Shown piece after piece: positions 15,220-36,480 of a DNA stretch of 36,480 bases. Source of the DNA: a virus; IMG/VR virus record IMGVR_UViG_3300045988_009883, positions 1 to 36,480 of that record; one strand, written 5' to 3'. How positions within the stretch are numbered: position 1 is the first letter of the stretch; the number at the start of each line of letters is the position of its first letter. Under the pieces are notes generated by a model. It made no database searches, was not told the origin of the DNA, and was given only the letters and a program-made list of their open reading frames with translations. The position numbers and the translations under genes were made by a program.

Positions 15220-15494
15220 TGAGCAATAATGTTGAAGCGCGCCGCGCGTATTCGCGCAAATACTACGCGGAGAACTACGAGAAGTTGTCAAAGTACAAAA
15301 GCGACAGACGGCGCAAAAAATCGCGTGACACAGCTTTCGGCGCGTTCCTGCGGGAAAACGGTATCACGCAGACAGCAGCGGCAAAAATGCTTGGCGTGTC
15401 CATATCAACAGTTAACTGCTGGGCGAACGGAATCACAAACGCGCGCGAAGATAGGATCCGCGCAGTGTGGCCGGAGTATGGGGGTGAGGGATAA
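15219..15494 (+). CDS. Helix-turn-helix DNA-binding protein.
   Basis: ITQTAAAKMLGVSISTVNCWANG is a classic HTH. TGATG overlap with the upstream gene. The track start at 15144 is an upstream extension. Confidence 0.6.
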   Translation: MSNNVEARRAYSRKYYAENYEKLSKYKSDRRRKKSRDTAFGAFLRENGITQTAAAKMLGVSISTVNCWANGITNAREDRIRAVWPEYGGEG

Positions 15495-19529: not shown

Positions 19530-19889
19530 ATGCCGGATGAATTCCCGTTTGAACGCGCTGCAATTAATGATGAAGATATGCCGCGCGACCTTGACATCGC
19601 AGACGCTTGTTTTTACACCGCTCTGCGGATTATTTACAAGGCGTATCATAATGGCGTTATCGACCGAAAAACCGGTACAGAGCTAAAAAAGCAGCTTACA
19701 CGCGCTCATGTGAGCGATAAGAGCAAAGTTGAGTTTTTGAAGCGAAGCGCGATTGACCTTAACGACCGAATCAAAAAAGCGTCGGATGCATATAAATCCA
19801 ACCGAACGATTGAAAACGCCGACGAACTTTACGCTGCATTTTACAATTTACCAGACGATTGGAGAAATAAAAAAAATGATCAAAGATAG
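19530..19889 (+). CDS. Hypothetical protein.
   Basis: AGGAGG 9 nt before the ATG at 19530; the track start at 19521 abuts the RBS. Confidence 0.5.
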   Translation: MPDEFPFERAAINDEDMPRDLDIADACFYTALRIIYKAYHNGVIDRKTGTELKKQLTRAHVSDKSKVEFLKRSAIDLNDRIKKASDAYKSNRTIENADELYAAFYNLPDDWRNKKNDQR

Positions 19890-20256
19890 TGGAGAAAGAA
19901 CCGAATTCGAAAGCGGGGCTGTCAGGGATATGCACGAAGGTAAAGGCGATATGGTCTCTATTCCGTGGGAATCAGTTTTGAGATTGTCACGGCACTACGA
20001 ATCTGGTGCAAAAAAGTATCAGCGATGGAATTTTAGAAAAGGAATCCCGGTTTCAAGTTTTATCGATTCCGCTTGCAGGCACCTTGCAAAGTACCAATGC
20101 GGAATGGACGATGAAGATCATTTGGCGGCCGCAGCATTTAATATTCTGGGCGCGATGCTGATGGAAAATACAATGCCGGAAATGCAGGATTTGCCGCTTC
20201 GCAAAGGTAAAAACACATTTGATTATTTTGAAAGTAAGGTAAAAAGAAATGATTAG
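19876..20256 (+). CDS. dATP/dGTP diphosphohydrolase N-terminal-like (DUF5664) domain protein.
   Basis: DSGERTEF..IPWESVLRLSRHYESGAKKYQRWNFRKGIPVSSFIDSACRHLAKY..GMDDEDHLAAAAFNILGAM matches the family layout from memory. ATG at 19876. Confidence 0.55.
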   Translation: MIKDSGERTEFESGAVRDMHEGKGDMVSIPWESVLRLSRHYESGAKKYQRWNFRKGIPVSSFIDSACRHLAKYQCGMDDEDHLAAAAFNILGAMLMENTMPEMQDLPLRKGKNTFDYFESKVKRND

Positions 20257-20597: not shown

Positions 20598-20939
20598 ATG
20601 GCTAATGAAAAAAATTTGATACCGTTTAACGAGCTAACAGAGAGCCAACAGAGAGAAATAGCCTCCAAAGGTGGAAAAGCAAGCGCAGAGGCAAAACGAA
20701 AGCGGAAAACGCTCAAAGAGGAACTCTTGCTGATGCTTGAAGATGAAGAAGTGCAGAAGTCTGTTGCTGTTGCGCTTATTCAAGAGGCACAAAACGGAAA
20801 TGTAAAGGCTTTTGGAATGCTTCGGGACACCATCGGAGAGGCACCTGTTGAAAAGGTACAAACTACGCAAACAGTTGTTGATATGAGTGCTTTTAGCACA
20901 GAAGAAATAAAGGCGATGCTTGACGATGACTTACCGTGA
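20598..20939 (+). CDS. terS: Terminase small subunit (putative).
   Basis: 113 aa immediately upstream of and overlapping the large terminase gene. Basic N-terminal pattern ..SQQREIASKGGKASAEAKRKRK... Strong RBS GGAGGTGAGG. Confidence 0.6.
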   Translation: MANEKNLIPFNELTESQQREIASKGGKASAEAKRKRKTLKEELLLMLEDEEVQKSVAVALIQEAQNGNVKAFGMLRDTIGEAPVEKVQTTQTVVDMSAFSTEEIKAMLDDDLP

Positions 20940-22317
20940 TGCGCTACGCTGCGAATTGGCAAGGCGTGACTTTTGGGAATACTGCAAGCTGTTAGCACCT
21001 GACTTTTACAAAGAAGATCGCAAGTTCTTGAAAGACAAATGCCGTGAGTACCAGGATTTTTATGAAAGCCAAGACGAATACTTGATTGACAACGAACCAC
21101 CGCGACATGGCAAGTCCAGAACGGCGACTTTGTTCGTCCAATGGGTTATTGGAAAGTGTCCGAAAGATAAAATAATTACTGGTTCATACAACGAAACGCT
21201 GTCCACCGTCTTTTCAAAGGGCGTTAGAAACAAGATACAAGAAACCTCTGCTGATGGTCGAATTGTTTACAATGACATTTTCCCCAATGTTAGAGTAAAG
21301 CGTGGCGACGCTGCAGCTAACCTATGGGGCATTGAGGGAAACGACACAAACACATACCTTGCGACATCTCCAACTGGCACAGCTACCGGCTTCGGTGCTG
21401 ACTTGATGCTGATTGATGACCTTATCAAAAACGAGTACGAAGCGAGAAACGATAATGTCAAAGAACAGCATTGGAAGTGGTTCACAGACACTATGTTGTC
21501 CCGCCGTGAGGGTAAACGCAAGGTTATTGTGGTTATGACCAGATGGGCATCGGACGACCTCGCAGGGCGGCTTATAGAGGCACTTAACCGGCAAGGGAAA
21601 AAGTATCGTCTGATCTGTTATAAAGCGTTTGACGGTCACTCAATGCTCTGTGAGGACATTTTGAGCCGCGCCCAGTATGAAGATATACTGCAAGGCGACA
21701 CGGGCAAGGATATTGTGGAGGCGAACTACAATCAGTCGCCCATTGACATTACTGGCAGACTTTACAGCCAGTTGCAGACCTATGACGAACTGCCGAAGAA
21801 CATCGAAAGCATTGACAGCTACACCGACACGGCTGATGAAGGTGCCGACTTCCTATGCTCTATTATCTATGCTGTCAAAGATTGCAAGGCTTATGTGCTG
21901 GAAGTGATCTACACGCAAGATGGAATGGAAGTCACGGAAGATTTGGTTGCAAAGGCACACACAGACTATTCCGTGAACCGCGCAAAAATCGAGAGCAACA
22001 ACGGCGGTAAAGGATTTGCACGAAATGTCAAGCGGATTGCGCAGGAGAAGTACGGCAACAATATCACGCACTTTTTCACATTCACGCAGACAAAGAACAA
22101 GATCAGCCGTATCTTGACAGGCTCAACAGGTGTTATGAACAATGTACTGTTTCCTGTTGGATGGGAAAACCGCTGGCGTGAGTATTGGCGTGATATGACA
22201 AAGTATCAGCGGATTGGGAAAAACGCTCACGATGACGCGCAGGACGCCACAACAGGCGTTTATGAAAATCTGCCTAAGAAAAAGGCAACAAGCAATTACA
22301 CGCCGATTTTTATGTAG
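20926..22317 (+). CDS. terL: Terminase large subunit.
   Basis: Walker A-like PPRHGKSRT and Walker B LMLIDDLIK. Nuclease-half pattern ..DTADEGADF..ESNNGG... Position is upstream of the portal gene. The start may be the TTG at 20920. Confidence 0.85.
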   Translation: MTYRDALRCELARRDFWEYCKLLAPDFYKEDRKFLKDKCREYQDFYESQDEYLIDNEPPRHGKSRTATLFVQWVIGKCPKDKIITGSYNETLSTVFSKGVRNKIQETSADGRIVYNDIFPNVRVKRGDAAANLWGIEGNDTNTYLATSPTGTATGFGADLMLIDDLIKNEYEARNDNVKEQHWKWFTDTMLSRREGKRKVIVVMTRWASDDLAGRLIEALNRQGKKYRLICYKAFDGHSMLCEDILSRAQYEDILQGDTGKDIVEANYNQSPIDITGRLYSQLQTYDELPKNIESIDSYTDTADEGADFLCSIIYAVKDCKAYVLEVIYTQDGMEVTEDLVAKAHTDYSVNRAKIESNNGGKGFARNVKRIAQEKYGNNITHFFTFTQTKNKISRILTGSTGVMNNVLFPVGWENRWREYWRDMTKYQRIGKNAHDDAQDATTGVYENLPKKKATSNYTPIFM

Positions 22318-22664: not shown

Positions 22665-24068
22665 GTGATTGAAATACTCACTTTTAACGACTTGGTAGAA
22701 ATCGGCGAAAATGAACGCGACCGGATGGAGTTTGTGCTTGATGCGATTAAGGAGCATAAGGGGAGCGAACTATATAAAACTGCTTATGATGCGGAATTGT
22801 ACTACAAGCACCAAAATCCAACGATCATGCGGTTCCAGAAATTCGTATATAATCAATTTGGCCAGAAAGTCCCGGACATTTGGTCTCCAAACAACAAAAT
22901 CGCGTCGAACTGGTACAACTACTTCACAACTCAGGCCGTTTCGTATCTGCTTGGCAATGGCGTGACATTCAAAAAAGAATCCAACAAGGATAAACTGGGC
23001 AAGGATTTTGACAAAAAGGTACAGGACATTGCCACTCACGCAAAGAATGGCGGTGTTGCCTTTGGCTTCTGGAATCTTGACCACCTTGAATGTTTCGACC
23101 TGACCGAATTTGTACCGATTTATGACGAGGACGATGGTGGTTTGAAGGCCGGAATCCGTTTCTGGCAGATTGATGACAGCAAGCCGCTACGTGCTACCTT
23201 GTACGAGATGGACGGTTACACGGACTATATCAAGCGCAAGGGCGAAGATGTGGCTATCCTGCATGAAAAGCGGGCATACACGCAGATTATCAGGAAGAAC
23301 GACATTGAGGGCGAGACGATCCTTGATGGTGCGCCTCCTGCTGGATTCCCCATTGTGCCACTGTGGAATGTCAACCGGCAGAGTGACCTTGTTGGCAACC
23401 GTGGAACGATTGACGCCTATGATTTGATGGTGTCCGGTCTGATTAACAATGTCAGTGACGGTGAGTTCATTTACTGGATTCTCAAAAACTGCGGCGGCAT
23501 GAATGAGGCTGATGATGCAAAATTCATTGAACAGTTGAAACTGACCCGCGTTGCCCATGCTGACGGTGACGATGGGGCAAGTGTTGAAGCCCACAATGTA
23601 AATGTTGAGTTTGAAGCTACCTCAGAAGCCCTTGACAGGCTCACAAATCAGTTGTACACGGACTTTATGGCGCTAAAGGTGCAAGATGTGTCTGCCGGTT
23701 CCGTGACCGCTACGCAGATTCAGGCGGCTTATGAGCCTATCAATCAAAAGACAGACCAGTTTGAGTATCAAGTCACGGAGTTTATCAACGGCATTCTCGC
23801 TCTGGCTGGTATTGATGATGAGCCGACATACACCCGTTCGCAGATGAGCAATCAGTCTGAGACGCTGGAAATGGTCTTGCAAGCCGCTGAATATCTTGAT
23901 GATGAATATGTCACCACTAAGATTCTGACGCTTCTGGGCGACGCTGACAAGGCGCAGGAAGTGCTTAAACGAAAGGACGCGGAAGCGTCTGACAGATATA
24001 AACAGATGGAAACGGAACTGGAAGATTTGAAGAGTCAAAATGAAAACAATGAAAGTGAGGAAGAGTAA
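22665..24068 (+). CDS. Portal protein (SPP1 gp6-like).
   Basis: 467 aa directly after the terminase region. N-terminal pattern ..ELYKTAYDAELYYKHQNPTI. Acidic C-terminus. GTG start after GAGGGAG. Confidence 0.8.
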   Translation: MIEILTFNDLVEIGENERDRMEFVLDAIKEHKGSELYKTAYDAELYYKHQNPTIMRFQKFVYNQFGQKVPDIWSPNNKIASNWYNYFTTQAVSYLLGNGVTFKKESNKDKLGKDFDKKVQDIATHAKNGGVAFGFWNLDHLECFDLTEFVPIYDEDDGGLKAGIRFWQIDDSKPLRATLYEMDGYTDYIKRKGEDVAILHEKRAYTQIIRKNDIEGETILDGAPPAGFPIVPLWNVNRQSDLVGNRGTIDAYDLMVSGLINNVSDGEFIYWILKNCGGMNEADDAKFIEQLKLTRVAHADGDDGASVEAHNVNVEFEATSEALDRLTNQLYTDFMALKVQDVSAGSVTATQIQAAYEPINQKTDQFEYQVTEFINGILALAGIDDEPTYTRSQMSNQSETLEMVLQAAEYLDDEYVTTKILTLLGDADKAQEVLKRKDAEASDRYKQMETELEDLKSQNENNESEEE

Positions 24069-24640: not shown

Positions 24641-25522
24641 ATGGCAGACAAAGCGCATCGCCTGACAGACGAAAAACTGGAAGAAATGGAGAAGCGGCTG
24701 TCTGCCATTTATTCCAGGGCGGAAAAGGAAATTCAAAAGACAGCTGACGAATACTTTTCCAAATTTGCCAAGCATGACGAAGCCAAGCGGAAACTTTTAG
24801 AGCAGGGAAAAATCACAGAGGACGAATACACCAAATGGCGCAAGGGAAAGGTGATGTATGGCAAGCGGTTTACCGAAATGAAAGAGCAATGCGCTCAACA
24901 GCTTTTGAATGTTAACAAAACCGCCATTGCCTATATCAACGGTGAATTGCCGGAAGTGTATGCGATGAACTACAATGCCCTTGAAAGCACCGTAGATGGC
25001 GTTGGAGGCTATTCTTTCACTTTGGTGGATGCTGATACCGTCAGAAATTTGGCGGTCACAGACACGAGCCTGTTGCCTTACAAGAAGATTGACCCGGAAA
25101 AGGATATTCCATGGAACATGAAGAAAATCAATGCTGAAACCTTGCAAGGCATCTTACAAGGCGAGAGCATGGATAAAATCGCAAAGCGGATTATGAATGT
25201 TCAAGAGATGAACAAGACGCAAGCGATTAGGTCGGCACGGACTATTGTCACTGGCGCGGAAAACAAGGGGCGGCAGGACAGTTACAAACGAGCCGAAGAA
25301 GATGGAATTGTTATGAAGCGCGAATGGATTGCAACGAATGACAGCCGTACTCGACATTGGCACGCTGAACTTGACGGAGTTGAAGTTGATATTGATGAGC
25401 CGTGGGTGAATGAGTTTGGCGAAATTATGTTTCCGGGTGACCCGTCCGCCGATCCGGCCAATACCTACAACTGCCGATGCTCTATGTCTGCAAAAGTTAT
25501 CGGGTTTAAGAAGGTGCGCTAA
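24641..25522 (+). CDS. Minor head / head-morphogenesis protein (SPP1 gp7 / Mu F family).
   Basis: ..WIATNDSRTRHWHAELDGVEV...FPGDPSADPANTYNCRCS is the gp7/MuF C-terminal signature. Confidence 0.8.
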   Translation: MADKAHRLTDEKLEEMEKRLSAIYSRAEKEIQKTADEYFSKFAKHDEAKRKLLEQGKITEDEYTKWRKGKVMYGKRFTEMKEQCAQQLLNVNKTAIAYINGELPEVYAMNYNALESTVDGVGGYSFTLVDADTVRNLAVTDTSLLPYKKIDPEKDIPWNMKKINAETLQGILQGESMDKIAKRIMNVQEMNKTQAIRSARTIVTGAENKGRQDSYKRAEEDGIVMKREWIATNDSRTRHWHAELDGVEVDIDEPWVNEFGEIMFPGDPSADPANTYNCRCSMSAKVIGFKKVR

Positions 25523-25844: not shown

Positions 25845-25885
25845 TTGACAAAACACCAATTTAGTGTATAATATTAGTGTATAAT
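25845..25885 (+). promoter_or_regulatory. Promoter with a tandemly duplicated -10 region upstream of the HNH gene.
   Basis: TTGACA (25845-25850), a 16-nt spacer, then TATAAT (25867-25872). The 13-nt unit TTAGTGTATAATr occurs twice in tandem (25861-25873 and 25874-25886), giving a second TATAAT at 25880. Confidence 0.6.
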
Positions 25886-25970
25886 GCAAGGACAGCGGGT
25901 TGCAAACCGTTTCAATGCCTAACCATTGATTACTTGCCTTATATTAAAAATATCTGTTAGGAGATAAAAT

Positions 25971-26471
25971 ATGGAAATTTGGAAAAACATCGAGGAAACG
26001 GGCAATTTATATTCTGTCAGCAACAAAGGCGTTGTTAAACGAAACAAAGATGGAAAGATAATGAAGCAGAATGTTCACCCGAATAAGTATATGAATGTTT
26101 TGCTTACATCTGGCGGCAAACAGAGAAATTACAAAGTCCACAGACTTGTTGCAAAAGCGTTTATCCCAAATCCCGAAAACCTACCTCAAGTAAACCATAA
26201 AGATGAGGACAGAACGAATAATTGCGTTGAAAATCTTGAATGGTGTACATCTTCCTATAATTGTTCATACGGAACGAGAACGGAAAGAATTAAAGAACAA
26301 ATCAGCCTCCCAGTTATTCAATGCGATTTGAATGGAAAGCAGCTGAAAACATATCCTAGCATCATTGAAGCATCAAGGCAAGTAGGATGCTCCGATAGCG
26401 GAATATCAAAGGCTTGCAGAGGCATTTACAGACAGTATAAAGGTTATAAATGGCGATATGCCGATTTATAA
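25971..26471 (+). CDS. HNH homing endonuclease (NUMOD4 + HNH_3 + C-terminal HTH-like module).
   Basis: EIWKNI..YSVSNKGVV (NUMOD4), VHRLVAKAFIPNPENLPQVNHKDEDRTNNCVENLEW (HNH_3) and ..YPSIIEASRQVG...ISKAC. AT-rich insert between head genes. Confidence 0.85.
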   Translation: MEIWKNIEETGNLYSVSNKGVVKRNKDGKIMKQNVHPNKYMNVLLTSGGKQRNYKVHRLVAKAFIPNPENLPQVNHKDEDRTNNCVENLEWCTSSYNCSYGTRTERIKEQISLPVIQCDLNGKQLKTYPSIIEASRQVGCSDSGISKACRGIYRQYKGYKWRYADL

Positions 26472-26522: not shown

Positions 26523-27113
26523 ATGGCACTTACTCGTGAATTTATCCGCAAACTCGCAAAGGAAAGCGACGTTGAGCTGCCGAAAGAATTTATTGACGGT
26601 ATCATTGCGGAACACACTAATGCAAGGGATGCTTACGCCGAGGAACAGGTGAAAGCGGAACTTGAAAAGCAGCCTGCTGCAAAGGCTGAAAATGTCAAGG
26701 AAAGCGAGGAATATAAAGCCCTAAAAGCTGACTTTGACAAGTACAAGGCGGAGGTTGCCGAAAAGGAAACCAAAGCTGCGAAAGAAGCTGCATATAGAGC
26801 CATTCTGAAAGACGCCAACCTGAGTGAAAAAGGCATTGAAAAAGCCGTTAAGTATGCCGATTGGGACAAGATTGAACTTGGCGAAGACGGCAAGCTGAAA
26901 GGCGCAAATGACCATATCAAGGCTGTGCGTGAGGAATGGGCTGAATATGTGACGACCACCACCACGACCGGGGCAAAAACTTCTACGCCCCCGGCAAACA
27001 ATGGTGGAAAGACGGGCAAAACCAAAGAAGAAATTATGGCAATTCGTGATCCTGCCGTCCGTCAGGCTGAGATTGCCAAAAACCCCGAAGCATTCGGGTT
27101 GAAATTCGATTAA
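26523..27113 (+). CDS. Scaffolding protein (GP20-like).
   Basis: An Ala/Glu/Lys-rich helical protein directly upstream of the major capsid gene. ..FIDGIIAEHTNARDAYAEEQVKAELEK. Confidence 0.75.
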   Translation: MALTREFIRKLAKESDVELPKEFIDGIIAEHTNARDAYAEEQVKAELEKQPAAKAENVKESEEYKALKADFDKYKAEVAEKETKAAKEAAYRAILKDANLSEKGIEKAVKYADWDKIELGEDGKLKGANDHIKAVREEWAEYVTTTTTTGAKTSTPPANNGGKTGKTKEEIMAIRDPAVRQAEIAKNPEAFGLKFD

Positions 27114-27128
27114 AGGAGTTATTAAAGT

Positions 27129-28046
27129 ATGGCTAATGAAGTATATACCACTTCCGAAACTAACCTGATTAAGGCTGCGCAGATGGCGCGTGTCCGTGAG
27201 GTTGATTTTGTTTCCCAGTTCGCCCACAACTCTCTTGCCAAGTTTCTTGAGGTGCTGGGCGTAACCCGTAAGATTCCAATGATGGAAGGCACCACCATGT
27301 ATGTGTATTCCACCACTGGCACGCTTCAGAGTGGCGCTGTGGCTGAAGGTGCGGTCATTCCTCTGTCCCAGTATACGACTACCAAGACCGCTGTTGGCGA
27401 AATCACCCTGAATAAGTGGCGCAAGGCCGCCTCTGCTGAGGCTATCAAGAAGTCCGGCTACGATGCTGCTGTCCGTGATACCGATACCGCTCTGCTGAAG
27501 GATGTGCAGAAGGGTGTTCGCACGAATCTGTTTAACTTCCTTAACGGCACTATCACCAATTCTGTCACCGCTTCCGGTGCTGACCTTCAGTCCGCTCTTG
27601 CCGATGCGTGGGGCCAGCTTCAGATTAAGTTTGAGGACGATACCGCCGAGGCCGTTTACTTTGTGAACCCGCGCGACATTGCCTCTTATCTTGGCGCTGC
27701 AAATATCACCACTCAGAACGCGTTCGGCATGAACTATGTTGAGGATTTCCTCGGCCTTGGTACCGTGATTATTTCCTCTCAGATTACGCAGGGCACTTTT
27801 GTGGCAACCGCAAAGGAAAACCTGGTTGTTTACTACCTGACCATGAATGGCGATATCGCCAATGCGTTCAACCTGACCGCAGACGAGACCGGCTTCATCG
27901 GCATCAAGTCTGGTTACCAGAACGAGGAGCGCGCACAGATTGAGTCCCTTGTTATGTCCGGCGTTCAGATTCTTGTTGAGTACGCCGCAGGCGTTGTCAA
28001 GGGCACTATTGGTGCAGAAGGCGCAACTGGAGCAACTGGAGCATAA
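27129..28046 (+). CDS. Major capsid protein.
   Basis: 305 aa, biased codon usage, positioned after the scaffold gene. The protein ends in the Gly/Ala/Thr tail GAEGATGATGA, encoded partly by a 9-bp tandem repeat (28023-28040). Confidence 0.8.
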   Translation: MANEVYTTSETNLIKAAQMARVREVDFVSQFAHNSLAKFLEVLGVTRKIPMMEGTTMYVYSTTGTLQSGAVAEGAVIPLSQYTTTKTAVGEITLNKWRKAASAEAIKKSGYDAAVRDTDTALLKDVQKGVRTNLFNFLNGTITNSVTASGADLQSALADAWGQLQIKFEDDTAEAVYFVNPRDIASYLGAANITTQNAFGMNYVEDFLGLGTVIISSQITQGTFVATAKENLVVYYLTMNGDIANAFNLTADETGFIGIKSGYQNEERAQIESLVMSGVQILVEYAAGVVKGTIGAEGATGATGA

Positions 28047-28049
28047 TGA

Positions 28050-28688
28050 ATGAAAATTCTGATCGCTGTCCCGACATTCGAGAATATTTATCCCGATACA
28101 TTCAAGTCAATTTATGACTTGGATGTGTCGGGGCACGATGCAGAGTTTGATTTTGTTCGTGGGTATGACTGTGCAACCGCAAGAAACCGTATTGCGCAGA
28201 TGGCTCTTGATAAACGAGTTGATTATGTGCTGATGGTAGACAATGATGTGGTTCTTCCGCAGAAAACGATTCAGTATATGCTCGAAGATGTAAAAGATGT
28301 TTGCCTTGGATATTATGCACATCGTGATTCTGACAATTTGTATCGTGGTTGGGTATCCATATGTAAATTATATGATGAGAATGGTAAAAAACATTTCAAC
28401 TATCCGCTGGAATCCGAATACATGGCAGAAGAACTTAAAAATCTTCATGATAACGGAACGACCAAGATACAGATTCATGGTGGCGGTATGGGATGCGCCT
28501 TCATAAAAACAGATGTGTTCAGAAGGATTGAGTACCCGTGGTATGATTGGGTAAACTACAAGCATCGTGGAGTGCTGTCAGAGGATTTGTATTTTTGTGA
28601 GGAATGCAGAAAGAATGGCATACCGATTTACACAGATACAAGAGCAAATTGCGGTCATATGTTACGACACATTCAGTTTGCAGATTAA
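28050..28688 (+). CDS. GT-A fold (family-2-like) glycosyltransferase.
   Basis: ILIAVPTFEN, ARNRIAQMALDKRVDYVLMVDNDVVL (DxD = DND), GGGMGCAFIK and SEDLYFCEECRKNGIPIY follow the GT2 motif order. AT-rich relative to the flanking capsid gene. Confidence 0.65.
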   Translation: MKILIAVPTFENIYPDTFKSIYDLDVSGHDAEFDFVRGYDCATARNRIAQMALDKRVDYVLMVDNDVVLPQKTIQYMLEDVKDVCLGYYAHRDSDNLYRGWVSICKLYDENGKKHFNYPLESEYMAEELKNLHDNGTTKIQIHGGGMGCAFIKTDVFRRIEYPWYDWVNYKHRGVLSEDLYFCEECRKNGIPIYTDTRANCGHMLRHIQFAD

Positions 28689-28697: not shown

Positions 28698-28901
28698 ATG
28701 TATAAGGTAATCGAAAGGTTCATGGATTTGCAGGACGATAATTACATCTATGAAGTCGGGGATGCGTATCCAAGAGAAGGAGCTGACCCGACACTTGAGC
28801 GGATTCGTGAACTTGCAAGTAATAGCAACAAGATTGGTAAACCGCTGATTGAAGAAGTCGCGGAAAAGCCGAAACGGACGCGGAAAAAGAAAGACGAATA
28901 A
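28698..28901 (+). CDS. Small conserved structural-module protein.
   Basis: FMDLQDDNYIYEVGDAYPREGADPTLERIRELASNSNKIGKPLIEE plus a basic tail. I recall this family downstream of capsid genes in Firmicutes phages. Confidence 0.55.
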   Translation: MYKVIERFMDLQDDNYIYEVGDAYPREGADPTLERIRELASNSNKIGKPLIEEVAEKPKRTRKKKDE

Positions 28902-30177: not shown

Positions 30178-30765
30178 TTGAAATACACGAAAATCCCCGA
30201 AAATACATTTCAGAACATCCAGTTGAATGCCGGTGTTCTTCTTAGCTCATTTACCCCTTCGAGTGCAACTGTTTCGGACGAAGCTATTATCGGCGCTACG
30301 ACTGGCGGCATCAATTTTACTGCGACACCGACTTATATCGATTTCGGAGAAGATATCGATAATTGCCCGAAAAACATGAAGGAGCTTAAAAAGCTCGACA
30401 GTTGGGAAGCGAAGTGCTCCGGAACTTTTGTCACCGTTGACACCGCAGTCGCTAAATCTCTTATCGGTGCTGCGGACATCGGTTCCTCTGATACCACTAA
30501 GGTCACTCCGAGGAACGATCTTGCTCAGGCTGACTTCAGCGATATCTGGATTGTGGGCGACTATTCCGATAAAAACGGAGATACGAACGGTGGTTTCATT
30601 GCCATCCACATGATGAACGCTCTGTCTACGGGCGGGTTCCAGATTAAGACCGCCGACAAGGCGAAAGGCCAGTTTGCGTTCGAGTACACTGCTCATTATT
30701 CTATGAGCGCTCAGGACACCGTGCCTTTTGAGGTGTACGTAAAGGCAGGAACCGCAGAATCTTGA
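30178..30765 (+). CDS. Major tail (tube) protein.
   Basis: 195 aa. TTG start after GGAGGG. Positioned upstream of the chaperone pair and tape measure gene, with biased codon usage. Confidence 0.7.
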   Translation: MKYTKIPENTFQNIQLNAGVLLSSFTPSSATVSDEAIIGATTGGINFTATPTYIDFGEDIDNCPKNMKELKKLDSWEAKCSGTFVTVDTAVAKSLIGAADIGSSDTTKVTPRNDLAQADFSDIWIVGDYSDKNGDTNGGFIAIHMMNALSTGGFQIKTADKAKGQFAFEYTAHYSMSAQDTVPFEVYVKAGTAES

Positions 30766-31152: not shown

Positions 31153-31380
31153 ATGCGGTATGCTATGGCACGCTATCAATCACAACAGCGTGATTTGGCG
31201 TACCGCATTTATGTTTCTGACTGTTTACGCATTATCAGTGAAAACACAGCCAAAATTGGCGGCGGCTCTTATATCACCGCAAAATTTTCCGATATTATCA
31301 ATCCTAAGCCCGTTGACAATCGAACTGGCGAGGAAATAGCCGCAGATATTATAAAACGGGCTGGAATTGAGGTGGTTTAG
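31153..31380 (+). CDS. gpT-like chaperone extension, probably made as a -1 frameshift fusion with 30791-31135.
   Basis: The gene is in the -1 frame relative to the gpG-like gene. That frame is open from 31027. There is no RBS before the ATG at 31153. Confidence 0.6.
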   Translation: MRYAMARYQSQQRDLAYRIYVSDCLRIISENTAKIGGGSYITAKFSDIINPKPVDNRTGEEIAADIIKRAGIEVV

Positions 31381-32981
31381 TGAATCTGTTTGAACTTTTT
31401 GTCAAAATCGGCGTTGACGATCAGGCAAGCGATAAGATTTCCAGCATGTCAAGCAAGCTCGGAAGCGGACTTGCAACGGCGGCAAAAGTTGGCGCTGCGG
31501 CTGTTGCCGCTGCTGGAACTGCTATTGTAGCAATCGGCAAACAAGCGATTGAGCAGTACGCAGAGTATGAACAGCTTGTAGGCGGCGTTGAAACGCTGTT
31601 TAAGCAATCGTCAGATGTTGTGCAGCAGTATGCCGCAAACGCTTATAAAACCGCTGGTATGTCCGCAAACGAGTATATGAACACGGTTACAAGCTTCTCC
31701 GCGTCTCTGTTGCAGTCTCTTGGCGGTGATACAGAAGCGGCTGCAAAATACGCTGATATGGCCGTCACGGACATGTCCGACAACGCAAACAAAATGGGCA
31801 CAAGCATGGAGAGCATCCAGAACGCCTATCAAGGTTTTGCCAAGCAGAACTACACGATGCTGGATAACCTGAAGCTTGGCTACGGCGGCACAAAAGAAGA
31901 AATGGAACGGCTTCTTTCTGACGCTCAGAATCTTTCCGGCGTTGAATACGACATCTCCAGTTACGCGGATATTGTGGATGCAATCCATGTTGTGCAGACC
32001 GAGATGGGCATAACTGGCACTACCGCAAAGGAAGCAAGTGAAACTATCAGCGGCTCAACGGCGGCAATGAAATCCGCATGGCAAAACATGCTTGTAGGCA
32101 TGGCGGACGATAACGCAGACTTTGGTCAGTTGGTTAACAACCTCGTTGATAGTGCTGTCACTGTGGGAGAAAACATTATCCCCCGTGTAGAGCAGACAAT
32201 ACAAGGCTTGGCAACATTTATCAGCAGCGCATCTGATACTATAATACCGCTTGTAGTTGACACTATTGTTAATAATCTGCCTATGATTATATCGGCGGGT
32301 GTTGACCTCGTTGTTTCCCTTGCTGGTGCTTTGATTGACGCTATACCCGAATTGTTAAAAGCTGTACCACAAATAATACTTGCTATTGTTAACGGGTTTA
32401 AGTCGCTTATGCCTCAAATCACAGGCATTGGTAAAAGTATTGTCACCGCTATTGGTGACGGCATAAAGAGCCTTGCTTCTGATGCTGTACAGTGGGGCAA
32501 AGATTTAATCCAGAATTTTATCAACGGACTCCTGGCAAAATGGAACGCATTAAAACAAACAGTTTCTAATGTCGCCCAAACGGTTAAGGATTTTCTGGGA
32601 TTCTCGGAACCAAAGAAAGGCCCTCTGTCCAACTTCCACACTTATGCCCCTGACATGATGAATTTGTTCATTCAGGGCATCAGGGACAACGAGAAGAAAC
32701 TGACAGACCAAATTGAAAAAACTTTTGATTTTGGAGAACGAACCATTACCGCTGGGATTTCCTATGGAAGCTATGGCGATGGTGTATTTTCTAGTGGTGG
32801 TGGATATGGTGCCGGGCAAATGTCAGTTGTGCAAAACAGCGTCCGCTCGGCTATCCGAGACGAGATTGGGAAGATTGGCATCTATCTTGATGGCAACACG
32901 CTCGTTGGGGGCATCTCTGACCGTATGAATCAGGGCCTTGGCAGCATTTACGCCGGTAACGAAAGGAGGGCGATGGCCTGA
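31380..32981 (+). CDS. Tape measure protein.
   Basis: 533 aa, Ala/Gly-rich and helical. ..ANKMGTSMESIQNAYQGFAKQNYTMLDNLKLGYGGTKEEMERLL is the common TMP core motif. GTG start overlaps the TAG. Confidence 0.85.
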   Translation: MNLFELFVKIGVDDQASDKISSMSSKLGSGLATAAKVGAAAVAAAGTAIVAIGKQAIEQYAEYEQLVGGVETLFKQSSDVVQQYAANAYKTAGMSANEYMNTVTSFSASLLQSLGGDTEAAAKYADMAVTDMSDNANKMGTSMESIQNAYQGFAKQNYTMLDNLKLGYGGTKEEMERLLSDAQNLSGVEYDISSYADIVDAIHVVQTEMGITGTTAKEASETISGSTAAMKSAWQNMLVGMADDNADFGQLVNNLVDSAVTVGENIIPRVEQTIQGLATFISSASDTIIPLVVDTIVNNLPMIISAGVDLVVSLAGALIDAIPELLKAVPQIILAIVNGFKSLMPQITGIGKSIVTAIGDGIKSLASDAVQWGKDLIQNFINGLLAKWNALKQTVSNVAQTVKDFLGFSEPKKGPLSNFHTYAPDMMNLFIQGIRDNEKKLTDQIEKTFDFGERTITAGISYGSYGDGVFSSGGGYGAGQMSVVQNSVRSAIRDEIGKIGIYLDGNTLVGGISDRMNQGLGSIYAGNERRAMA

Positions 32982-34039
32982 TGGGTAAACTTTTGACGTT
33001 TAGAATGCGCTTGCACGGCGCGAGCACGTGGGATGAGATTGTACCAGAAACCGGAAAGCAAGTAGTGATTGTGTCCGCGACTATTGACAACCCCGCAACC
33101 AAAACGGACACGGTGGACATTAACACCAATGACGGCGTGCTTGACTTTTCGGAGGCACAGGGCATCCATTACGGCAACCGCAACATTGAAGTCACCTTGC
33201 GTGAGATCGCTGGTTCCACCTATGATTTCGACGCGTTCCGCAGAAAGTACCTCGGCCAGATGGTTGACTGCCGGTTTGAGGTGACTAGCGGTTATTACTA
33301 CTATGGACGCCTGACTGACATTGTAGATAACTATCAGCAGGACTTCCGTACAATCACGCTTACGATTGACGCGTATCCTTTTAGGCGTCCAGCTGGAGGA
33401 AAAACAAAAGCAAACGTTACCGTCAACGCAGCCGGAAACCTTATGCCCGTGACATCTTCCGCTGTAATTACAACCGAAACAACAAACGGTGCGATGCAGT
33501 ATAGTTACGTGGATGATGCGTATCTCGGTAAAGACGTAGTAATTTATTTGCCAGGAAGTGTCTTTAATCCTACAAATGGTACTTTATATCTAACTGTAAC
33601 CGGGCTTGCCGCAAACAAAAAGTACAAACTTTTGTTCGCGGCTCCGACAAATGTCGGGAACATCACGATTAGAGATGCAAGTAAAACTGGCACGATTCTA
33701 AAGGGCGCTCTCAAGGATTCGGCTGAATTTACCACAATGTCAAGCACCATCGTGCTTTGCTTTAACGTGACCTTCGGAAATACGCAGTTTAATAACATCA
33801 GCCTGCTTCTTTCTGATTTCACATCCGCGCACCTTGATAACGGCGATAAGGTGGAGACGCCGACTTACGAAGCGATGACACAGGATGTTATTGTAAACGT
33901 TGGTGGAAAGCAAACCACGCTTTACGCTGGCAGCACATCGAACCCTTACTTCACAATCCCGCGTGGCGGGTGTGACATCACAGCAACGGGAGAAACTGCC
34001 GGAATCCTAAAATTGTCGTATGAACAGGAGATGCTCTGA
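32981..34039 (+). CDS. Distal tail protein (Dit-like).
   Basis: 352 aa directly after the TMP gene, with a TGATG overlap. Confidence 0.6.
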   Translation: MGKLLTFRMRLHGASTWDEIVPETGKQVVIVSATIDNPATKTDTVDINTNDGVLDFSEAQGIHYGNRNIEVTLREIAGSTYDFDAFRRKYLGQMVDCRFEVTSGYYYYGRLTDIVDNYQQDFRTITLTIDAYPFRRPAGGKTKANVTVNAAGNLMPVTSSAVITTETTNGAMQYSYVDDAYLGKDVVIYLPGSVFNPTNGTLYLTVTGLAANKKYKLLFAAPTNVGNITIRDASKTGTILKGALKDSAEFTTMSSTIVLCFNVTFGNTQFNNISLLLSDFTSAHLDNGDKVETPTYEAMTQDVIVNVGGKQTTLYAGSTSNPYFTIPRGGCDITATGETAGILKLSYEQEML

Positions 34040-35352
34040 TGTTTGTTGGATATGTAGACAACCAGCTCTTGTTTGCAACATCGCAGCCGAAAGGCAAAGA
34101 AATTATCTCTGGCACGCTGACGGACGAAATTAACTCCGTCAGCGCGCTGGAATTTACACTCCCTCCGTCAAACGACATGGCCGGGCAGATTACCCCGCAC
34201 GCGTCCGTTATCAAGCTCGAATCCGATGGCGCGGAGATCTTTCGCGGCACGGCAAACAGTGTGAGCAAAAATTTTCGTGGTGATACCGTTGTAAGCTGCG
34301 ACGGTATGATTGCTTTGATGGCAGATGTTATTCGCGCGCCTGATTCGGTATCCGGGATCAATACAAAGTATTATGTGAATTCGTTGATTACCAACTATAA
34401 CAATGGCGTTTCTGACAATCGGCATATTTCAGCTGGCATCATCGACGAATTCGGCACGTTCACGGCCGACCACAGCCAAGAGTGCAAAAATATTTTTGAA
34501 CTTTTGAAAGAGGTGCTATCTAAAAAAGGCGGCTATATCTGGGCGTCTTATGTTGGCGGGGATGTGCGCATCAATTACACCAGCACAATCGGCCGAAGAA
34601 ACAACCAGCAGATTGCTTTCGGATCAAACCTCGTGAACATTGAAGACCAGCTTGAAGTGGGAACGCTTGTCACACGTGTCTGGCCGCTCGGCAAAGAAGG
34701 TCTCACAATCGCTAGCGTAAACAACGGAATCATCTATTTGCAAAACGAAGAAGTTGAACTGCGCTATGGCCGTGTTGATAAAACAATACATGTTGACAGT
34801 GATGACCCGTCTGTTGTAAAATCGTATGGGCAGGCGTATCTAACACGGTACGCTGCAATGAACAACACAATCACTTTGACCGCGATTGACCTGCACAACC
34901 TCGACAAAACAATCTCGTCGTTTGAGGTTGGCGATTCCGTTCGAGTGCTTTCTCCTCCGCACGGAATTGACGCGGATATGGTTGTTAATAGCGTCTCTAC
35001 GGACTTGGTTAAGATTTCTAATTCGAGAATCACGCTCGGAGGGAAAAAGGGAAGCATTACAAGCGTTATTTCTTCTGGCGTCGGTTCTGGCGGTTCTGTT
35101 GGGTTTATTGGTGGAGGCGGTGGCAGCGGAAGTGGTGGCGGAGCATCTATCGTTGTTGATAGCGCGCTTTCGCTCACGTCCACAAATCCGGTTGAAAACA
35201 AGGTTATCACTGCCGCACTGGCCGGAAAAGCCAGCACAGCTACGGCAACGCAGTCAGCGGCTGGCCTGATGTCTGCTGCGGACAAGACCAAGCTGGACGG
35301 CCTGACTGCCATGACGGCCGACGAGATGCGCGCAATCTGGAACGCGAATTGA
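34039..35352 (+). CDS. Tail-associated (Tal-like) minor structural protein with a Gly-rich linker and a fibre-type C-terminal repeat.
   Basis: 437 aa after Dit. GVGSGGSVGFIGGGGGSGSGGG, then SALSLTSTNPVENKVITAAL and AAGLMSAADKTKLDGL. The same motifs recur in the next gene. Confidence 0.6.
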   Translation: MFVGYVDNQLLFATSQPKGKEIISGTLTDEINSVSALEFTLPPSNDMAGQITPHASVIKLESDGAEIFRGTANSVSKNFRGDTVVSCDGMIALMADVIRAPDSVSGINTKYYVNSLITNYNNGVSDNRHISAGIIDEFGTFTADHSQECKNIFELLKEVLSKKGGYIWASYVGGDVRINYTSTIGRRNNQQIAFGSNLVNIEDQLEVGTLVTRVWPLGKEGLTIASVNNGIIYLQNEEVELRYGRVDKTIHVDSDDPSVVKSYGQAYLTRYAAMNNTITLTAIDLHNLDKTISSFEVGDSVRVLSPPHGIDADMVVNSVSTDLVKISNSRITLGGKKGSITSVISSGVGSGGSVGFIGGGGGSGSGGGASIVVDSALSLTSTNPVENKVITAALAGKASTATATQSAAGLMSAADKTKLDGLTAMTADEMRAIWNAN

Positions 35353-35365
35353 AAGGACTGATAGT

Positions 35366-36480
35366 ATGGACGAATCCACATACGTAGGGCCGACCGCGGC
35401 CGCGAAACTTGCTGCGCTGGCAAAGGCGGAGCTGGGCAAAAAGGCTGGAAAAGACGTCGCCACGTCCGAAGCTGACGGCCTTATGTCTGCATCTGACAAG
35501 AGCAAACTTGATGGTATCGAGTCCGGGGCAAACAAAACCATCGTGGACGCGGCGCTGGATGCGTCCAGCACGAATTCAGTGCAGAACAAGGCCGTCAAGG
35601 CGGCGCTGGATGGCAAGCTGTCAACGCGGGGTGGCGAAATTTCTGGCTATCTGGAGGTCGGTCAGACAGTCAGCGCCGAGGGATCTGTATCTGTTGGCAG
35701 GACGAGCTCCGATAGCGGCATCCACTTTGAGAAAGCGGCTTCTGACGCTGGGCGCATTTCGCATGGCATGGCTGGCGTCGACGATACGGTTCCGCTTGCC
35801 CGACTGAAAGTGGCTGCCCCGACCGAGGATGACGACGCGGCGACTAAGGCGTATGTAGATAACAACGCTGCCGGGACTGGCGCGGTTAGATACGATGCTA
35901 CGCAGACGCTGACTTTTGAGCAGAAACAACAGGCGCGCAAAAATATTGAGGCGGCGGATAGCGTAATGCCTACCATTACTGGCGGTGTGTCACTGTGCCC
36001 GGCAAACGTTACGGATAGCAACACGGCAGTTCATACTACGACCACAACTGCCGGAGGCGATGATTTCACTCTCACGCTTGACGGCGGACCGGAAAATTCG
36101 CTTGTGCGTGTGAAAGGAATCAGAACGCCAACTGATGCAGACACCGACGCGGCCGCGACCGTCAAATACGTTAAGGAAAAAATCGCAGAAGTCGCTGCGA
36201 GCGGCGGAGTGGACGTGGATAATGCGTTGTCGGCTACATCTACCAACCCCGTCCAAAACAAAGTTGTGACTTCCGCCTTGAACGGCAAAGCCGGTACCGC
36301 AGTGGCTACACAGTCAATCAACGGCCTGATGTCCGCTGCCGATAAGAAAAAATTGGACGGGATCGCGTCTGGCGCGACCAAAGTCACTATTGACAGCACT
36401 ATGTCCGGGTCATCAAACAACCCAGTCGCAAACCATGTCGTCAAGCAGTACGTCGATGACAAGGTGGCTGCTGCTGGCAG
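35366..36480 (+). CDS. Tail fibre / receptor-binding protein, 5' part (no stop in the window; continues at 56-767).
   Basis: ATG at 35366. My translation: MDESTYVGPTAAAKLAALAKAELGKKAG... with repeated STN(P/S)VQNK.V and GLMSA.DK.KLDGI motifs. The frame is open to the window end, so the gene is absent from the ORF track. Confidence 0.8.
   Translation, partial: MDESTYVGPTAAAKLAALAKAELGKKAGKDVATSEADGLMSASDKSKLDGIESGANKTIVDAALDASSTNSVQNKAVKAALDGKLSTRGGEISGYLEVGQTVSAEGSVSVGRTSSDSGIHFEKAASDAGRISHGMAGVDDTVPLARLKVAAPTEDDDAATKAYVDNNAAGTGAVRYDATQTLTFEQKQQARKNIEAADSVMPTITGGVSLCPANVTDSNTAVHTTTTTAGGDDFTLTLDGGPENSLVRVKGIRTPTDADTDAAATVKYVKEKIAEVAASGGVDVDNALSATSTNPVQNKVVTSALNGKAGTAVATQSINGLMSAADKKKLDGIASGATKVTIDSTMSGSSNNPVANHVVKQYVDDKVAAAG
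36426..36480. repeat. Exact 55-nt terminal direct repeat, copy 2.
   Basis: Identical to positions 1-55. Confidence 0.95.

What the first reader, a model, noticed from the sequence alone, without database searches (positions are those of the whole stretch)
28003..28688. GT-A glycosyltransferase fused into the late operon 4 nt after the major capsid gene, whose product ends in a GATGATGA tail
ORF 28050-28688 carries the GT2 motif order: ILIAVPT, ARN..., DND and SEDLYFC. It is visibly more AT-rich than the capsid gene it follows, which suggests a moron-like acquisition. It has no promoter or terminator of its own, so it should be made with the virion proteins.

The capsid protein ends in a flexible Gly/Ala/Thr extension (GTIGAEGATGATGA) encoded by a 9-bp tandem duplication (gcaactgga x2, 28023-28040). 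The tail tube protein ends in KAGTAES.

To my recollection, phage-encoded glycosyltransferases that O-glycosylate C-terminal extensions of capsid and tail-tube subunits have been reported only for some mycobacteriophages. A Firmicutes-type phage doing this would be new. The alternative is modification of host wall polymers for superinfection exclusion.
Basis: partly seen in the sequence, partly recalled or inferred. Interest (0 to 1): 0.65.

Follow-up and report, generated by a model that had tools for sequence, protein, structure and literature searches.

The report
Capsid sugar-tag and its glycosyltransferase
A human-gut phage encodes a small sugar-adding enzyme right after its capsid gene, and comparison with about 170 related loci shows this enzyme almost always travels with short Gly-X-Thr repeat tails on virion proteins, which points to an undescribed way for gut phages to coat their particles with sugars.

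Summary
The major capsid gene (27129-28046) ends in ...GAEGATGATGA, encoded by a perfect 9-bp tandem repeat. A 212-aa soluble GT-A glycosyltransferase gene (28050-28688) starts 3 nt after the capsid stop codon and is AT-rich.

The new result is comparative.
- Of 93 distinct loci carrying a homolog of this enzyme (49-97% identity), 91 also encode a protein with Gly-X-Thr/Ser triplet repeats.
- These repeats sit at the C-termini of at least five head-protein families and two major-tail-protein families, or form long collagen-like arrays in tail fibres.
- Only 4 of 77 enzyme-less relatives have even a loose match, and none has a (GAT)n tail.
- The tag is kept at the peptide level, because all synonymous codons are used.

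The closest solved structures are the STIV capsid-associated enzyme A197 and collagen glycosyltransferases. A proven bacterial analogue is C. difficile SgtA, which O-GlcNAcylates Gly-Pro-Thr repeats of the adjacent BclA3.

The most likely function is O-glycosylation of the capsid's C-terminal tag. In this phage the tail tube is not tagged. There is no sequence similarity to the mycobacteriophage virion glycosyltransferases. No biochemistry exists yet.

The parts
27129..28046 (+). Major capsid protein gene (305 aa), the proposed acceptor protein
   Evidence: PHROG 544 major head protein, E 7e-52. Translation. It is 63-83% identical to 80 IMG/VR relatives and Butyrivibrio phage Ceridwen.
28020..28043 (+). 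C-terminal tag G-A-T-G-A-T-G-A (two Gly-Ala-Thr triplets plus Gly-Ala), the proposed O-glycosylation site (Thr300, Thr303). It overlaps the perfect 9-bp tandem repeat GCAACTGGA x2.3 at 28023-28043.
   Evidence: this is the only ORF in the window that ends in such a repeat. The tag is identical in near-identical phages from other samples. Among close capsid relatives it is present only where the enzyme gene is present.
28005..28027 (+). Left edge of the DNA block shared with phages whose capsid proteins are otherwise only about 35% identical. A 23-nt stretch, actattggtgcagaaggcgcaac, is identical in L090.
   Evidence: blastn alignments to loci with dissimilar capsid genes start at 28004-28020 and run through the enzyme gene.
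28038..28041 (+). GGAG, a Shine-Dalgarno-like sequence for the enzyme gene, formed by the last Gly-Ala codons of the tag, 8 nt before the ATG. The spacer 28047-28049 (TGA) separates the two genes.
   Evidence: Read directly from the sequence. Its role in translational coupling is inferred.
28050..28688 (+). Soluble 212-aa GT-A glycosyltransferase. DxD motif D64-N-D66 at 28239-28247, E178-D179 at 28581-28586, H203 at 28656-28658.
   Evidence: Invariant residues. AlphaFold2 pLDDT 95.7. Foldseek top hits are A197, COLGALT1, LH3 and R699. No hydrophobic segment: maximum Kyte-Doolittle(19) 0.65. GC 0.402.
28698..28901 (+). Small conserved 67-aa gene (PHROG 3673/390). In relatives without the enzyme it follows the capsid gene directly, so it marks the right border of the insertion.
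   Evidence: Ceridwen and L007, L014, L018 and others have the small gene 2-5 nt after the capsid gene.
30178..30765 (+). Major tail (tube) protein gene. It was examined and is NOT tagged in this phage (ends ...FEVYVKAGTAES).
   Evidence: PHROG 885. Among homologous tube proteins, 0 of 54 in enzyme-less loci and 22 of 26 in enzyme-bearing loci carry a C-terminal GxT/S repeat. The window's ending matches the untagged type.

Best explanation
The 212-aa protein is a soluble, metal-dependent GT-A glycosyltransferase made in the cytoplasm together with the head proteins. It probably uses a host nucleotide-sugar to O-glycosylate the threonines of the short collagen-like Gly-Ala-Thr repeat at the end of the major capsid protein. 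Each capsid subunit would then carry one or two sugars on a flexible C-terminal tail.

The tag and the enzyme form a portable two-part module. In related gut and rumen phages the same enzyme is paired with the same kind of tag on other head proteins, on major tail proteins and on collagen-like tail fibres. In some phages further enzymes (GT8 and TagF-like) could extend the glycan.

Shown here:
- the fold and catalytic motifs of the enzyme;
- its position in the late operon;
- the near-perfect co-occurrence of enzyme and tag across unrelated carrier proteins;
- peptide-level conservation of the tag.

Inferred:
- that Thr is the acceptor;
- that the tail is exposed on the virion;
- the identity of the sugar;
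- the benefit to the phage (shielding from proteases or antibodies, mucus or surface interactions, or particle stability).
For: 1. Close capsid relatives. Among 80 relatives (71-83% identity), only the 3 with the enzyme gene have (GAT)n or GET-GAT tails. About 76 without it end in KGTITAS, KGTITGA, EIDDSF or other tails.

2. Enzyme-bearing loci. In 83 such IMG/VR loci, 116 ORFs end in (GxT)>=2, against 0 of 3856 open frames in 77 enzyme-less loci. With Ser allowed and internal arrays counted, the split is 91/93 against 4/77 loose matches. Fisher p is 2e-40, but the loci are not phylogenetically independent.

3. Unrelated carriers. Tagged proteins are head proteins of PHROGs 544, 29, 10, 3270 and 909, and major tail proteins of PHROGs 885 and 117. 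Tube tags lie 2-3 kb from the enzyme gene, so physical linkage alone does not explain them.

4. Tail fibres. In three loci without a C-terminal tag, the enzyme gene directly follows a tail-fibre-like protein with long (GAT)n/(GxT)n arrays.

5. Peptide-level selection. All four Gly, Ala and Thr codons are used, and 20 different DNA strings encode GATGAT. The Y position is Thr 403 times and Ser 22 times. One locus uses (GAS)n.

6. Structure. The high-confidence GT-A model has invariant D64, D66, E178, D179 and H203. The nearest solved structures are STIV A197, which is proposed to glycosylate that virus's capsid protein (PMC10551542), followed by the collagen glycosyltransferases COLGALT1, LH3 and Mimivirus R699 (PMC9546862).

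7. Precedent. C. difficile SgtA, a Mn-dependent GT-A enzyme encoded next to bclA3, adds beta-O-GlcNAc to Thr in Gly-Pro-Thr repeats and also accepts Ser (PMC7157674).

8. Cellular location and expression. The protein has no membrane segment. The gene has a 3-nt gap and a GGAG site within the tag codons, and no promoter of its own.
Against: - There is no biochemical or mass-spectrometric evidence for any member of this family.
- No cultured phage in GenBank has a close homolog. The best match is 38% identical, in a Methanobacteriales virus that has no tag.
- The window's tag is minimal, with two Thr.
- Exposure of the capsid C-terminus was not tested, because no related solved capsid was found.
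- Foldseek TM-scores of about 0.6 are typical of generic GT-A similarity, so the ranking of collagen enzymes is suggestive only.
- The co-occurrence counts include related loci and cannot be read as independent trials.
- Two enzyme-bearing loci show no tag. One is cut at the contig end, and in the other the tag may lie outside the fetched DNA.
Confidence: 0.7

Rival explanations
1. The enzyme modifies a host envelope polymer (teichoic acid, capsule or S-layer glycan) to block superinfection or change serotype, as prophage Gtr-type glycosyltransferases do. Its position after the capsid gene would then be incidental.
For: Many phage glycosyltransferases act on host surfaces (general knowledge). 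Related cassettes contain a TagF-like CDP-glycerol glycerophosphotransferase and a GT8 enzyme, families that are typical of wall-polymer synthesis.
Against: The protein is soluble with no membrane segment. No flippase or GtrA/GtrB-like partners were found among the ORFs scanned. The gene lies in the late structural operon without its own promoter. This reading does not explain the near-obligate pairing with GxT tags on seven virion protein families.
Confidence: 0.07
2. The GxT repeat is a structural or adhesive collagen-like motif that works without modification. The enzyme has another substrate and co-occurs only because tag and gene move together as one DNA cassette.
For: The DNA block shared between phages with dissimilar capsid genes starts at the tag and includes the enzyme gene. 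Unglycosylated collagen-like repeats are common in phage fibres (PMC8968730).
Against: Tail-tube tags 2-3 kb away from the enzyme gene show the same dependence on its presence: 22 of 26 against 0 of 54. Two to four triplets are too short for a stable collagen helix (general knowledge). The interchange of Thr and Ser at the Y position fits a hydroxyl acceptor.
Confidence: 0.1
3. The enzyme glycosylates phage DNA (hypermodified bases) to evade restriction.
For: Phage glycosyltransferases of the GT-A and GT-B folds glycosylate hydroxymethylated bases (papers listed). The window carries nucleotide-metabolism genes: a ThyX-like gene and a gene with a dATP/dGTP diphosphohydrolase domain.
Against: No hydroxymethylase-type (ThyA-like) or other base-hypermodification gene was found among the ORFs scanned. 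The gene lies in the head module, not the replication module. The tag association is left unexplained.
Confidence: 0.02
4. The gene is an inactive, recently acquired passenger with no present function in this phage.
For: Low GC (0.402 against 0.475 for the genome) suggests recent acquisition. The tube is untagged and the capsid tag is minimal.
Against: All catalytic residues are intact. The model is confidently folded. The 90%-identity cluster has 547 member sequences. Gene and tag are identical in independent samples.
Confidence: 0.03

Closest known systems
Mycobacteriophage virion glycosylation (Che8 gp108-110, Corndog, Myrna; Freeman et al. 2023, cited in PMC11600133, PMC12363180 and PMC12619734)
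   Same: Phage-encoded glycosyltransferases modify the C-termini of capsid and tail-tube subunits. In relatives of this window both the capsid and the tube are tagged.
   Different: No detectable sequence similarity: hhalign probability is about 1% against Che8 gp109 and gp110, and gp110 is Pfam GT25. The Che8 tails are short (...NKTGS...YSDGS) and are not Gly-X-Thr repeats. The Che8 enzyme genes lie about 50 kb from the capsid gene, whereas here the enzyme gene abuts it. The hosts here are gut Firmicutes-type bacteria, not Actinobacteria. The primary paper could not be read here.
Clostridioides difficile SgtA / BclA3 (PMC7157674)
   Same: A Mn-dependent GT-A enzyme is encoded next to its substrate gene. 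It O-glycosylates Thr (Ser is accepted) in Gly-X-Thr collagen-like triplets. The host phylum is the same as that of the likely hosts here.
   Different: SgtA is 358 aa with C-terminal TPR repeats, whereas this enzyme is 212 aa with no extra domain. The BclA3 substrate is a long collagen-like region of a spore protein, not a 2-5 triplet tail on a virion protein.
STIV A197, a minimal viral GT-A glycosyltransferase (PDB 2c0n)
   Same: It is the best solved relative by profile (E 2.8e-7) and by fold (E 3.9e-11, TM 0.59-0.65). It is of similar size (203 aa) and is a single GT-A domain. It is proposed to glycosylate the virus's own major capsid protein (PMC10551542).
   Different: It comes from an archaeal virus with a double-jelly-roll capsid. 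Identity is 18%. Its acceptor and donor are unknown, and no GxT tag is known.
Collagen glycosyltransferases: human COLGALT1 (GT25), LH3 GT domain, Mimivirus R699 (PMC9546862, PMC12279948)
   Same: They are the next-best structural matches (E 2.5e-9 to 1e-7). Their acceptors lie at the Y position of Gly-X-Y triplets.
   Different: Their acceptor is hydroxylysine or galactosyl-hydroxylysine, not Thr. They are multidomain enzymes. No lysyl hydroxylase is present in the window. TM-scores of about 0.6 indicate a shared GT-A fold, not membership.
Bacillus BclA exosporium glycoprotein (PMC8968730)
   Same: It is a collagen-like, glycosylated surface protein of a Gram-positive bacterium, a group whose collagen-like triplets mostly carry Thr at the Y position.
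   Different: It is a bacterial spore protein with long arrays, and its enzymes are different or unidentified.

Membership tests
GT-A fold nucleotide-sugar glycosyltransferases | Single Rossmann-like alpha/beta/alpha GT-A domain | tested here: met
   AlphaFold2 model has pLDDT 95.7 and pTM 0.91. 165 PDB matches at E<=1e-3; all but three of the 50 listed are glycosyltransferases.
GT-A fold nucleotide-sugar glycosyltransferases | DxD metal/nucleotide-binding motif, plus a downstream acidic catalytic pair and a His | tested here: met
   D64-N-D66, E178-D179 and H203 are invariant in 57 homologs with 30-83% identity to the window protein. Their roles are inferred by analogy.
Pfam GT2 (PF00535) / CAZy GT2 | Score above the Pfam gathering threshold | tested here: not met
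   20.3 bits against a cut-off of 23.3. No NCBIfam model matches.
Pfam Anp1 (PF03452) / CAZy GT62 mannosyltransferases | Full-length match above threshold | tested here: inconclusive
   29.3 bits against a cut-off of 28.8, but only residues 29-87 match profile positions 109-168 of 263. Profile against Mnn9 gives E 1.4e-4.
Mycobacteriophage virion glycosylation system | Enzyme homologous to Che8 gp110 / Corndog gp38 (GT25-like) | tested here: not met
   hhalign probability is 1.2% against gp110 and 0.9% against gp109. gp110 is PF01755.
Mycobacteriophage virion glycosylation system | C-terminal acceptor tails on both capsid and tail-tube subunits | tested here: inconclusive
   In the window the capsid is tagged and the tube is not. 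In 22 of 26 enzyme-bearing loci with a homologous tube protein, that tube carries a C-terminal tag, and many loci carry both a tagged head protein and a tagged tail protein.
Mycobacteriophage virion glycosylation system | Glycans shown on virion proteins by mass spectrometry | not testable with these tools
   Needs virions or recombinant proteins.
SgtA/BclA3-type O-glycosylation of Gly-X-Thr repeats | GT-A enzyme gene adjacent to a gene encoding Gly-X-Thr repeats | tested here: met
   In the window the gap is 3 nt. In 52 of 93 loci the tag lies within 40 nt upstream, and in 32 more one enzyme gene lies between them.
SgtA/BclA3-type O-glycosylation of Gly-X-Thr repeats | TPR substrate-binding domain on the enzyme | tested here: not met
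   The 212-aa protein is a single domain with no extra segment.
SgtA/BclA3-type O-glycosylation of Gly-X-Thr repeats | Sequence homology to SgtA | not tested
Collagen hydroxylysine glycosyltransferases (GT25 / LH3) | Hydroxylysine acceptor and an associated lysyl hydroxylase | tested here: not met
   The tag contains no Lys. No hydroxylase was found in the window ORFs scanned. Similarity is at fold level only.

The most novel reading that the evidence does not exclude
A widespread, so far undescribed virion-glycosylation module exists in human-gut and rumen phages. It consists of a minimal 212-aa GT-A enzyme and a portable, genetically encoded acceptor tag, (Gly-Ala/Glu-Thr)2-5. The tag has been grafted repeatedly onto unrelated capsid, decoration, tail-tube and collagen-like fibre proteins. 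In some phages GT8 and TagF-like enzymes may extend the glycan into a teichoic-acid-like coat. If so, much of the gut virome would circulate as glycoprotein particles, and the pair would be a ready-made short O-glycosylation tag for bacterial glyco-engineering.
Probability: 0.55. Interest if true: 0.85.

Novelty: new variant of a known kind. Interest (0 to 1): 0.78.

Why it matters
In the literature searched here, glycosylation of tailed-phage particles by phage-encoded enzymes is reported only for mycobacteriophages, where it alters antibody recognition.

This finding would extend it in three ways:
- to abundant phages of the human gut and the rumen;
- to a different enzyme family;
- to a sequence-defined acceptor tag that can be recognised in any genome.

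It turns an unannotated family (PHROG 1574 'unknown function'; 2801 clusters at 90% identity and 3762 at 50% identity in metagenomes) into a testable enzyme-substrate pair. It gives a simple rule for predicting which virion proteins are glycosylated. It bears on phage-mucus and phage-immune interactions in the gut. A tag of about 10 residues with a 212-aa soluble enzyme could also be a useful tool for O-glycosylating recombinant proteins in bacteria.

Tried and rejected
- The Freeman et al. 2023 primary paper (PMC10527164) is not held. I relied on papers that cite it and on the Che8 record itself.
The association is therefore shown only down to 49-53% identity (L176-L178). It is absent at 38% (Methanobacteriales virus vir323) and at 25% (MW202496).
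- Single-sequence PDB search with the enzyme gave only noise. The profile search was needed.
- Capsid C-terminus exposure could not be addressed.
- NCBIfam gave no match for the enzyme, the capsid protein or the small downstream protein.
- The idea that the tail tube's KAGTAES is a glycosylation tail was rejected.
- The idea that the repeat is merely a DNA-level scar of insertion was rejected, because the tag is encoded by many synonymous variants and also occurs on distant tube genes.
- Tag-length polymorphism among near-identical phages was looked for and not found.
Full report
**1. What is in the window**

The window is essentially a whole siphovirus genome of about 36.5 kb, circularly permuted.
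- It begins with the end of a tail fibre gene and an amidase endolysin.
- A replication module follows (Sak4-like annealing protein, primase-helicase).
- The late genes come next: large terminase 20920-22317, portal 22665-24068, head morphogenesis 24641-25522, an HNH homing endonuclease 25971-26471, scaffold 26523-27113, major capsid protein 27129-28046, the glycosyltransferase ORF 28050-28688, a small conserved gene 28698-28901, head-tail connector genes, major tail protein 30178-30765 and tape measure 31380-32981.

An identical copy of the enzyme gene lies on a 36,550-bp contig from a human gut metagenome (ERR414264). Near-identical phages occur in other samples. The closest cultured phage by capsid DNA is Butyrivibrio phage Ceridwen.

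**2. Check of the observation**

- The capsid protein ends ...VVKGTIGAEGATGATGA.
- The last residues are encoded by a perfect tandem repeat GCAACTGGA x2.3 at 28023-28043.
- The next ORF starts 3 nt after the stop codon and encodes 212 aa.
D64, D66, E178, D179 and H203 are invariant; P8 and R45 are nearly invariant.
- The gene has GC 0.402 (GC3 0.39), against 0.524 for the capsid gene and 0.475 for the genome. This is the second-lowest value among the late genes, after the homing endonuclease.
- Promoter and terminator scans give nothing above shuffled sequence.
- A GGAG formed by the last tag codons lies 8 nt before the ATG. Co-translation with the capsid protein is therefore plausible, but it is inferred.

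**3. What the enzyme is**

Curated family models barely see it.
- Pfam Anp1 scores just above threshold on a partial match, and GT2 scores below threshold.
- There is no NCBIfam match.
- The best PHROG match is family 1574, 'unknown function'.

The family is nevertheless large: 2801 clusters at 90% identity and 3762 clusters at 50% identity with E<=1e-3. None of the 40 members read from the closest cluster, which holds 547 sequences, carries a name.

An AlphaFold2 model built on 57 homologs is very confident (pLDDT 95.7). It has the GT-A fold.
- The best solved match, by profile (E 2.8e-7) and by fold (E 3.9e-11), is A197 of the archaeal virus STIV. A197 is a minimal GT-A enzyme that is essential and is proposed to glycosylate that virus's major capsid protein (PMC10551542).
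- The next matches are all collagen glycosyltransferases: human COLGALT1, the GT domain of LH3, and Mimivirus R699 (PMC9546862).
- TM-scores near 0.6 mean this ranking is a hint, not a family assignment.

The protein has no hydrophobic segment. It is therefore a soluble cytoplasmic enzyme, unlike membrane-bound enzymes that modify the envelope.

**4. The decisive evidence: enzyme and tag travel together**

*4a. Within the capsid family.* I fetched 80 IMG/VR loci whose capsid proteins are 71-83% identical to the window's.
- Only three carry a homolog of the enzyme, and exactly these three capsid proteins end in ...EGATGATGATGA, ...EGATGATGATS and ...GETGATGA.
- The others end in KGTITAS, KGTITGA, EIDDSF, or longer Ala/Ser-rich or Ig-like extensions.
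- The closest capsid relatives of the window (82-83%) have neither the enzyme nor the tag, so the pair is not simply a clade marker.

*4b. From the enzyme side.* I fetched 80 IMG/VR loci with enzyme homologs of 61-78% identity and 14 loci from metagenome-assembled genomes of 49-72% identity.
- In 52 of 93 non-redundant loci, an ORF ending in (G-x-T/S)2-11 stops within 40 nt of the enzyme's start.
- In 32 more, one further enzyme gene lies between them.
- In 77 enzyme-less loci (557 kb, 3856 open frames), no ORF ends in (GxT)>=2, against 116 such ORFs in the 83 enzyme-bearing IMG/VR loci.
- With the looser definition (Ser allowed, internal arrays counted), the split is 91/93 against 4/77. The four control matches are not (GAT)n-like.
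- The nominal Fisher p of 2e-40 overstates the case, because the loci are related.

*4c. Independence.* The more telling fact is that the carriers are unrelated.
- Tagged proteins are head proteins of five PHROG families (544, 29, 10, the protease-capsid fusion 3270, and the 125-aa family 909) and major tail proteins of two families (885, 117).
- Many loci have two tagged proteins: the head protein next to the enzyme gene and the tail-tube protein 2-3 kb downstream.
- Among homologs of the window's own tube protein, 22 of 26 in enzyme-bearing loci are tagged, against 0 of 54 in enzyme-less loci.
- In three loci that lack a C-terminal tag, the enzyme gene directly follows a tail-fibre-like protein with long internal collagen-like arrays of GAT, GPT, GDT and GET triplets.

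*4d. Selection acts on the peptide.*
- All four codons of Gly, Ala and Thr are used, and 20 different DNA strings encode GATGAT.
- The X position is mostly Ala (306) or Glu (62). The Y position is Thr (403) or Ser (22).
- One locus uses (GAS)4 on its capsid and GATGAS on its tube.
- The interchange of Thr and Ser, with Gly spacing strictly kept, is what an O-glycosylation acceptor would show.

*4e. A shared unit.* DNA similarity between the window and loci whose capsid proteins are only about 35% identical begins at 28004-28020, where the tag begins. It continues through the enzyme gene. A 23-nt identical stretch (28005-28027) is shared with L090. The tag and the enzyme gene therefore appear to be exchanged as one unit.

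**5. What does not hold**

- The tail tube of this phage ends ...FEVYVKAGTAES. Enzyme-less relatives end in ...KAGTAEQ...KAGTTSS or ...KAGTV, whereas genuinely tagged tubes read ...AGAEGATGSTS or ...EGATGATGV. The window is thus a capsid-only variant, as are four other enzyme-bearing loci.
- The enzyme shows no detectable similarity to the Che8 virion glycosyltransferases. Che8 gp110 belongs to Pfam GT25. The Che8 capsid and tube end in ...NKTGS and ...YSDGS, not in triplet repeats. The resemblance to the mycobacteriophage system is one of logic, not of descent.

**6. Most likely mechanism**

The most likely mechanism has the following steps.
1. Late in infection the enzyme is made with the head proteins.
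2. It uses a host nucleotide-sugar and a divalent metal (DxD motif, His203).
3. It transfers a sugar to Thr300 and/or Thr303 of the capsid tail.

The best biochemical precedent is C. difficile SgtA. It is a Mn-dependent GT-A enzyme encoded next to bclA3. It adds beta-O-GlcNAc to Thr in Gly-Pro-Thr triplets and also accepts Ser (PMC7157674). Thr is the predominant Y-position residue of collagen-like triplets in Gram-positive bacteria (PMC8968730).

The window carries no further glycosyltransferase among the ORFs scanned, so a monosaccharide per site is the simplest expectation. Related cassettes add a GT8 enzyme and/or a TagF-like CDP-glycerol glycerophosphotransferase, sometimes fused, which suggests longer and possibly glycerol-phosphate-containing glycans there.

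The following remain inferred: that Thr is the acceptor, the identity of the sugar, exposure of the tail on the capsid, and the benefit to the phage.

**7. Rivals**

- Host-envelope modification is unlikely for a soluble enzyme in the late operon, and it does not explain the tags.
- Pure hitch-hiking of an unmodified structural motif fails on the distant tube tags.
- DNA glycosylation lacks the required base-modifying genes among the ORFs scanned, and the gene lies in the wrong module.
- A dead passenger gene is contradicted by intact catalytic residues and wide conservation.

**8. Novelty**

In the held literature, natural glycosylation of tailed-phage particles is documented only for mycobacteriophages. 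No paper found links Gly-X-Thr tails on capsid or tube proteins with a phage glycosyltransferase.

No GenBank phage has a close homolog of the enzyme. The best is 38% identical, in an uncultured Methanobacteriales virus.

I rate this a new variant of a known kind. The principle is the same as in mycobacteriophages. The enzyme family, the host range and the gene arrangement differ, and there is a sequence-defined acceptor tag.

The literature check is limited to the held library and to my own knowledge.

Noticed in passing
window 25845-26471: An AT-rich (GC 0.379) HNH/NUMOD homing endonuclease gene (25971-26471) sits between the head-morphogenesis genes and the scaffold gene. It is preceded by a perfect sigma-70 consensus, TTGACA-16-TATAAT (25845-25872). 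A near-identical phage (L182) lacks it at this site. In L182 an HNH/NUMOD gene lies after a 152-aa ORF at the position where the tape-measure gene starts, so the endonuclease appears to be mobile.
   Followed up: partly
window 15494-16090, 18998-19456, 19753-20256: Nucleotide-metabolism genes: a ThyX-like protein (PF02511, partial match, 27.8 bits), DUF6378, and a protein with the N-terminal domain of dATP/dGTP diphosphohydrolases (PF18909). From memory, this domain occurs in enzymes of the 2-aminoadenine 'Z-genome' pathway. No PurZ-sized ORF was seen.
   Followed up: no
L086, L099, L104, L107, L113, L131, L133 (genes between the tagged head gene and the enzyme gene): Many related cassettes carry a GT8 glycosyltransferase (PF01501, about 230 aa) and/or a TagF-like CDP-glycerol glycerophosphotransferase (PF04464, about 300 aa), fused in L107 (531 aa). 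This suggests that the virion glycan is extended in those phages, possibly with glycerol phosphate as in teichoic acids.
   Followed up: partly
L170 3272-4993, L174 3600-4985, L177 2-739: Tail-fibre-like proteins with long internal collagen-like (GAT)n/(GxT)n arrays lie immediately upstream of homologs of the enzyme. The same enzyme family may therefore also serve true collagen-like fibres.
   Followed up: partly
L172 3128-4072 and 7142-7699: One locus from a Solobacterium-binned genome uses Ser instead of Thr in the tags. Its capsid ends ...GATGASGASGASGASN and its tube ends ...SGATGASS.
   Followed up: yes
L004-L083 (capsid C-termini): In enzyme-less relatives the C-terminus of this capsid family is highly variable. 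Endings include short forms (KGTITAS, EIDDSF), Ala/Ser/Thr-rich tails of 10-25 residues (e.g. ...TEAAAASNPSQGTGG, ...GAAAGASAASLSAPAPASAKSAAK) and whole extra domains (L023, L075, L078). This end is a hot spot for add-ons. Some tails might be substrates of other, unlinked enzymes.
   Followed up: no
L001 (BK063679.1, Methanobacteriales virus vir323) 5992-6591: A 38%-identical homolog of the enzyme sits in the head-tail module of an archaeal tailed virus. No GxT tag occurs on any neighbouring ORF. The enzyme family is therefore older and broader than the tag association.
   Followed up: partly
window 1-1582 and 34039-36480: The window is circularly permuted. It starts with the C-terminal part of a tail-fibre-like protein (39-767) and an amidase endolysin (818-1582), and it ends within the tail genes. 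It probably represents the complete phage genome.
   Followed up: no
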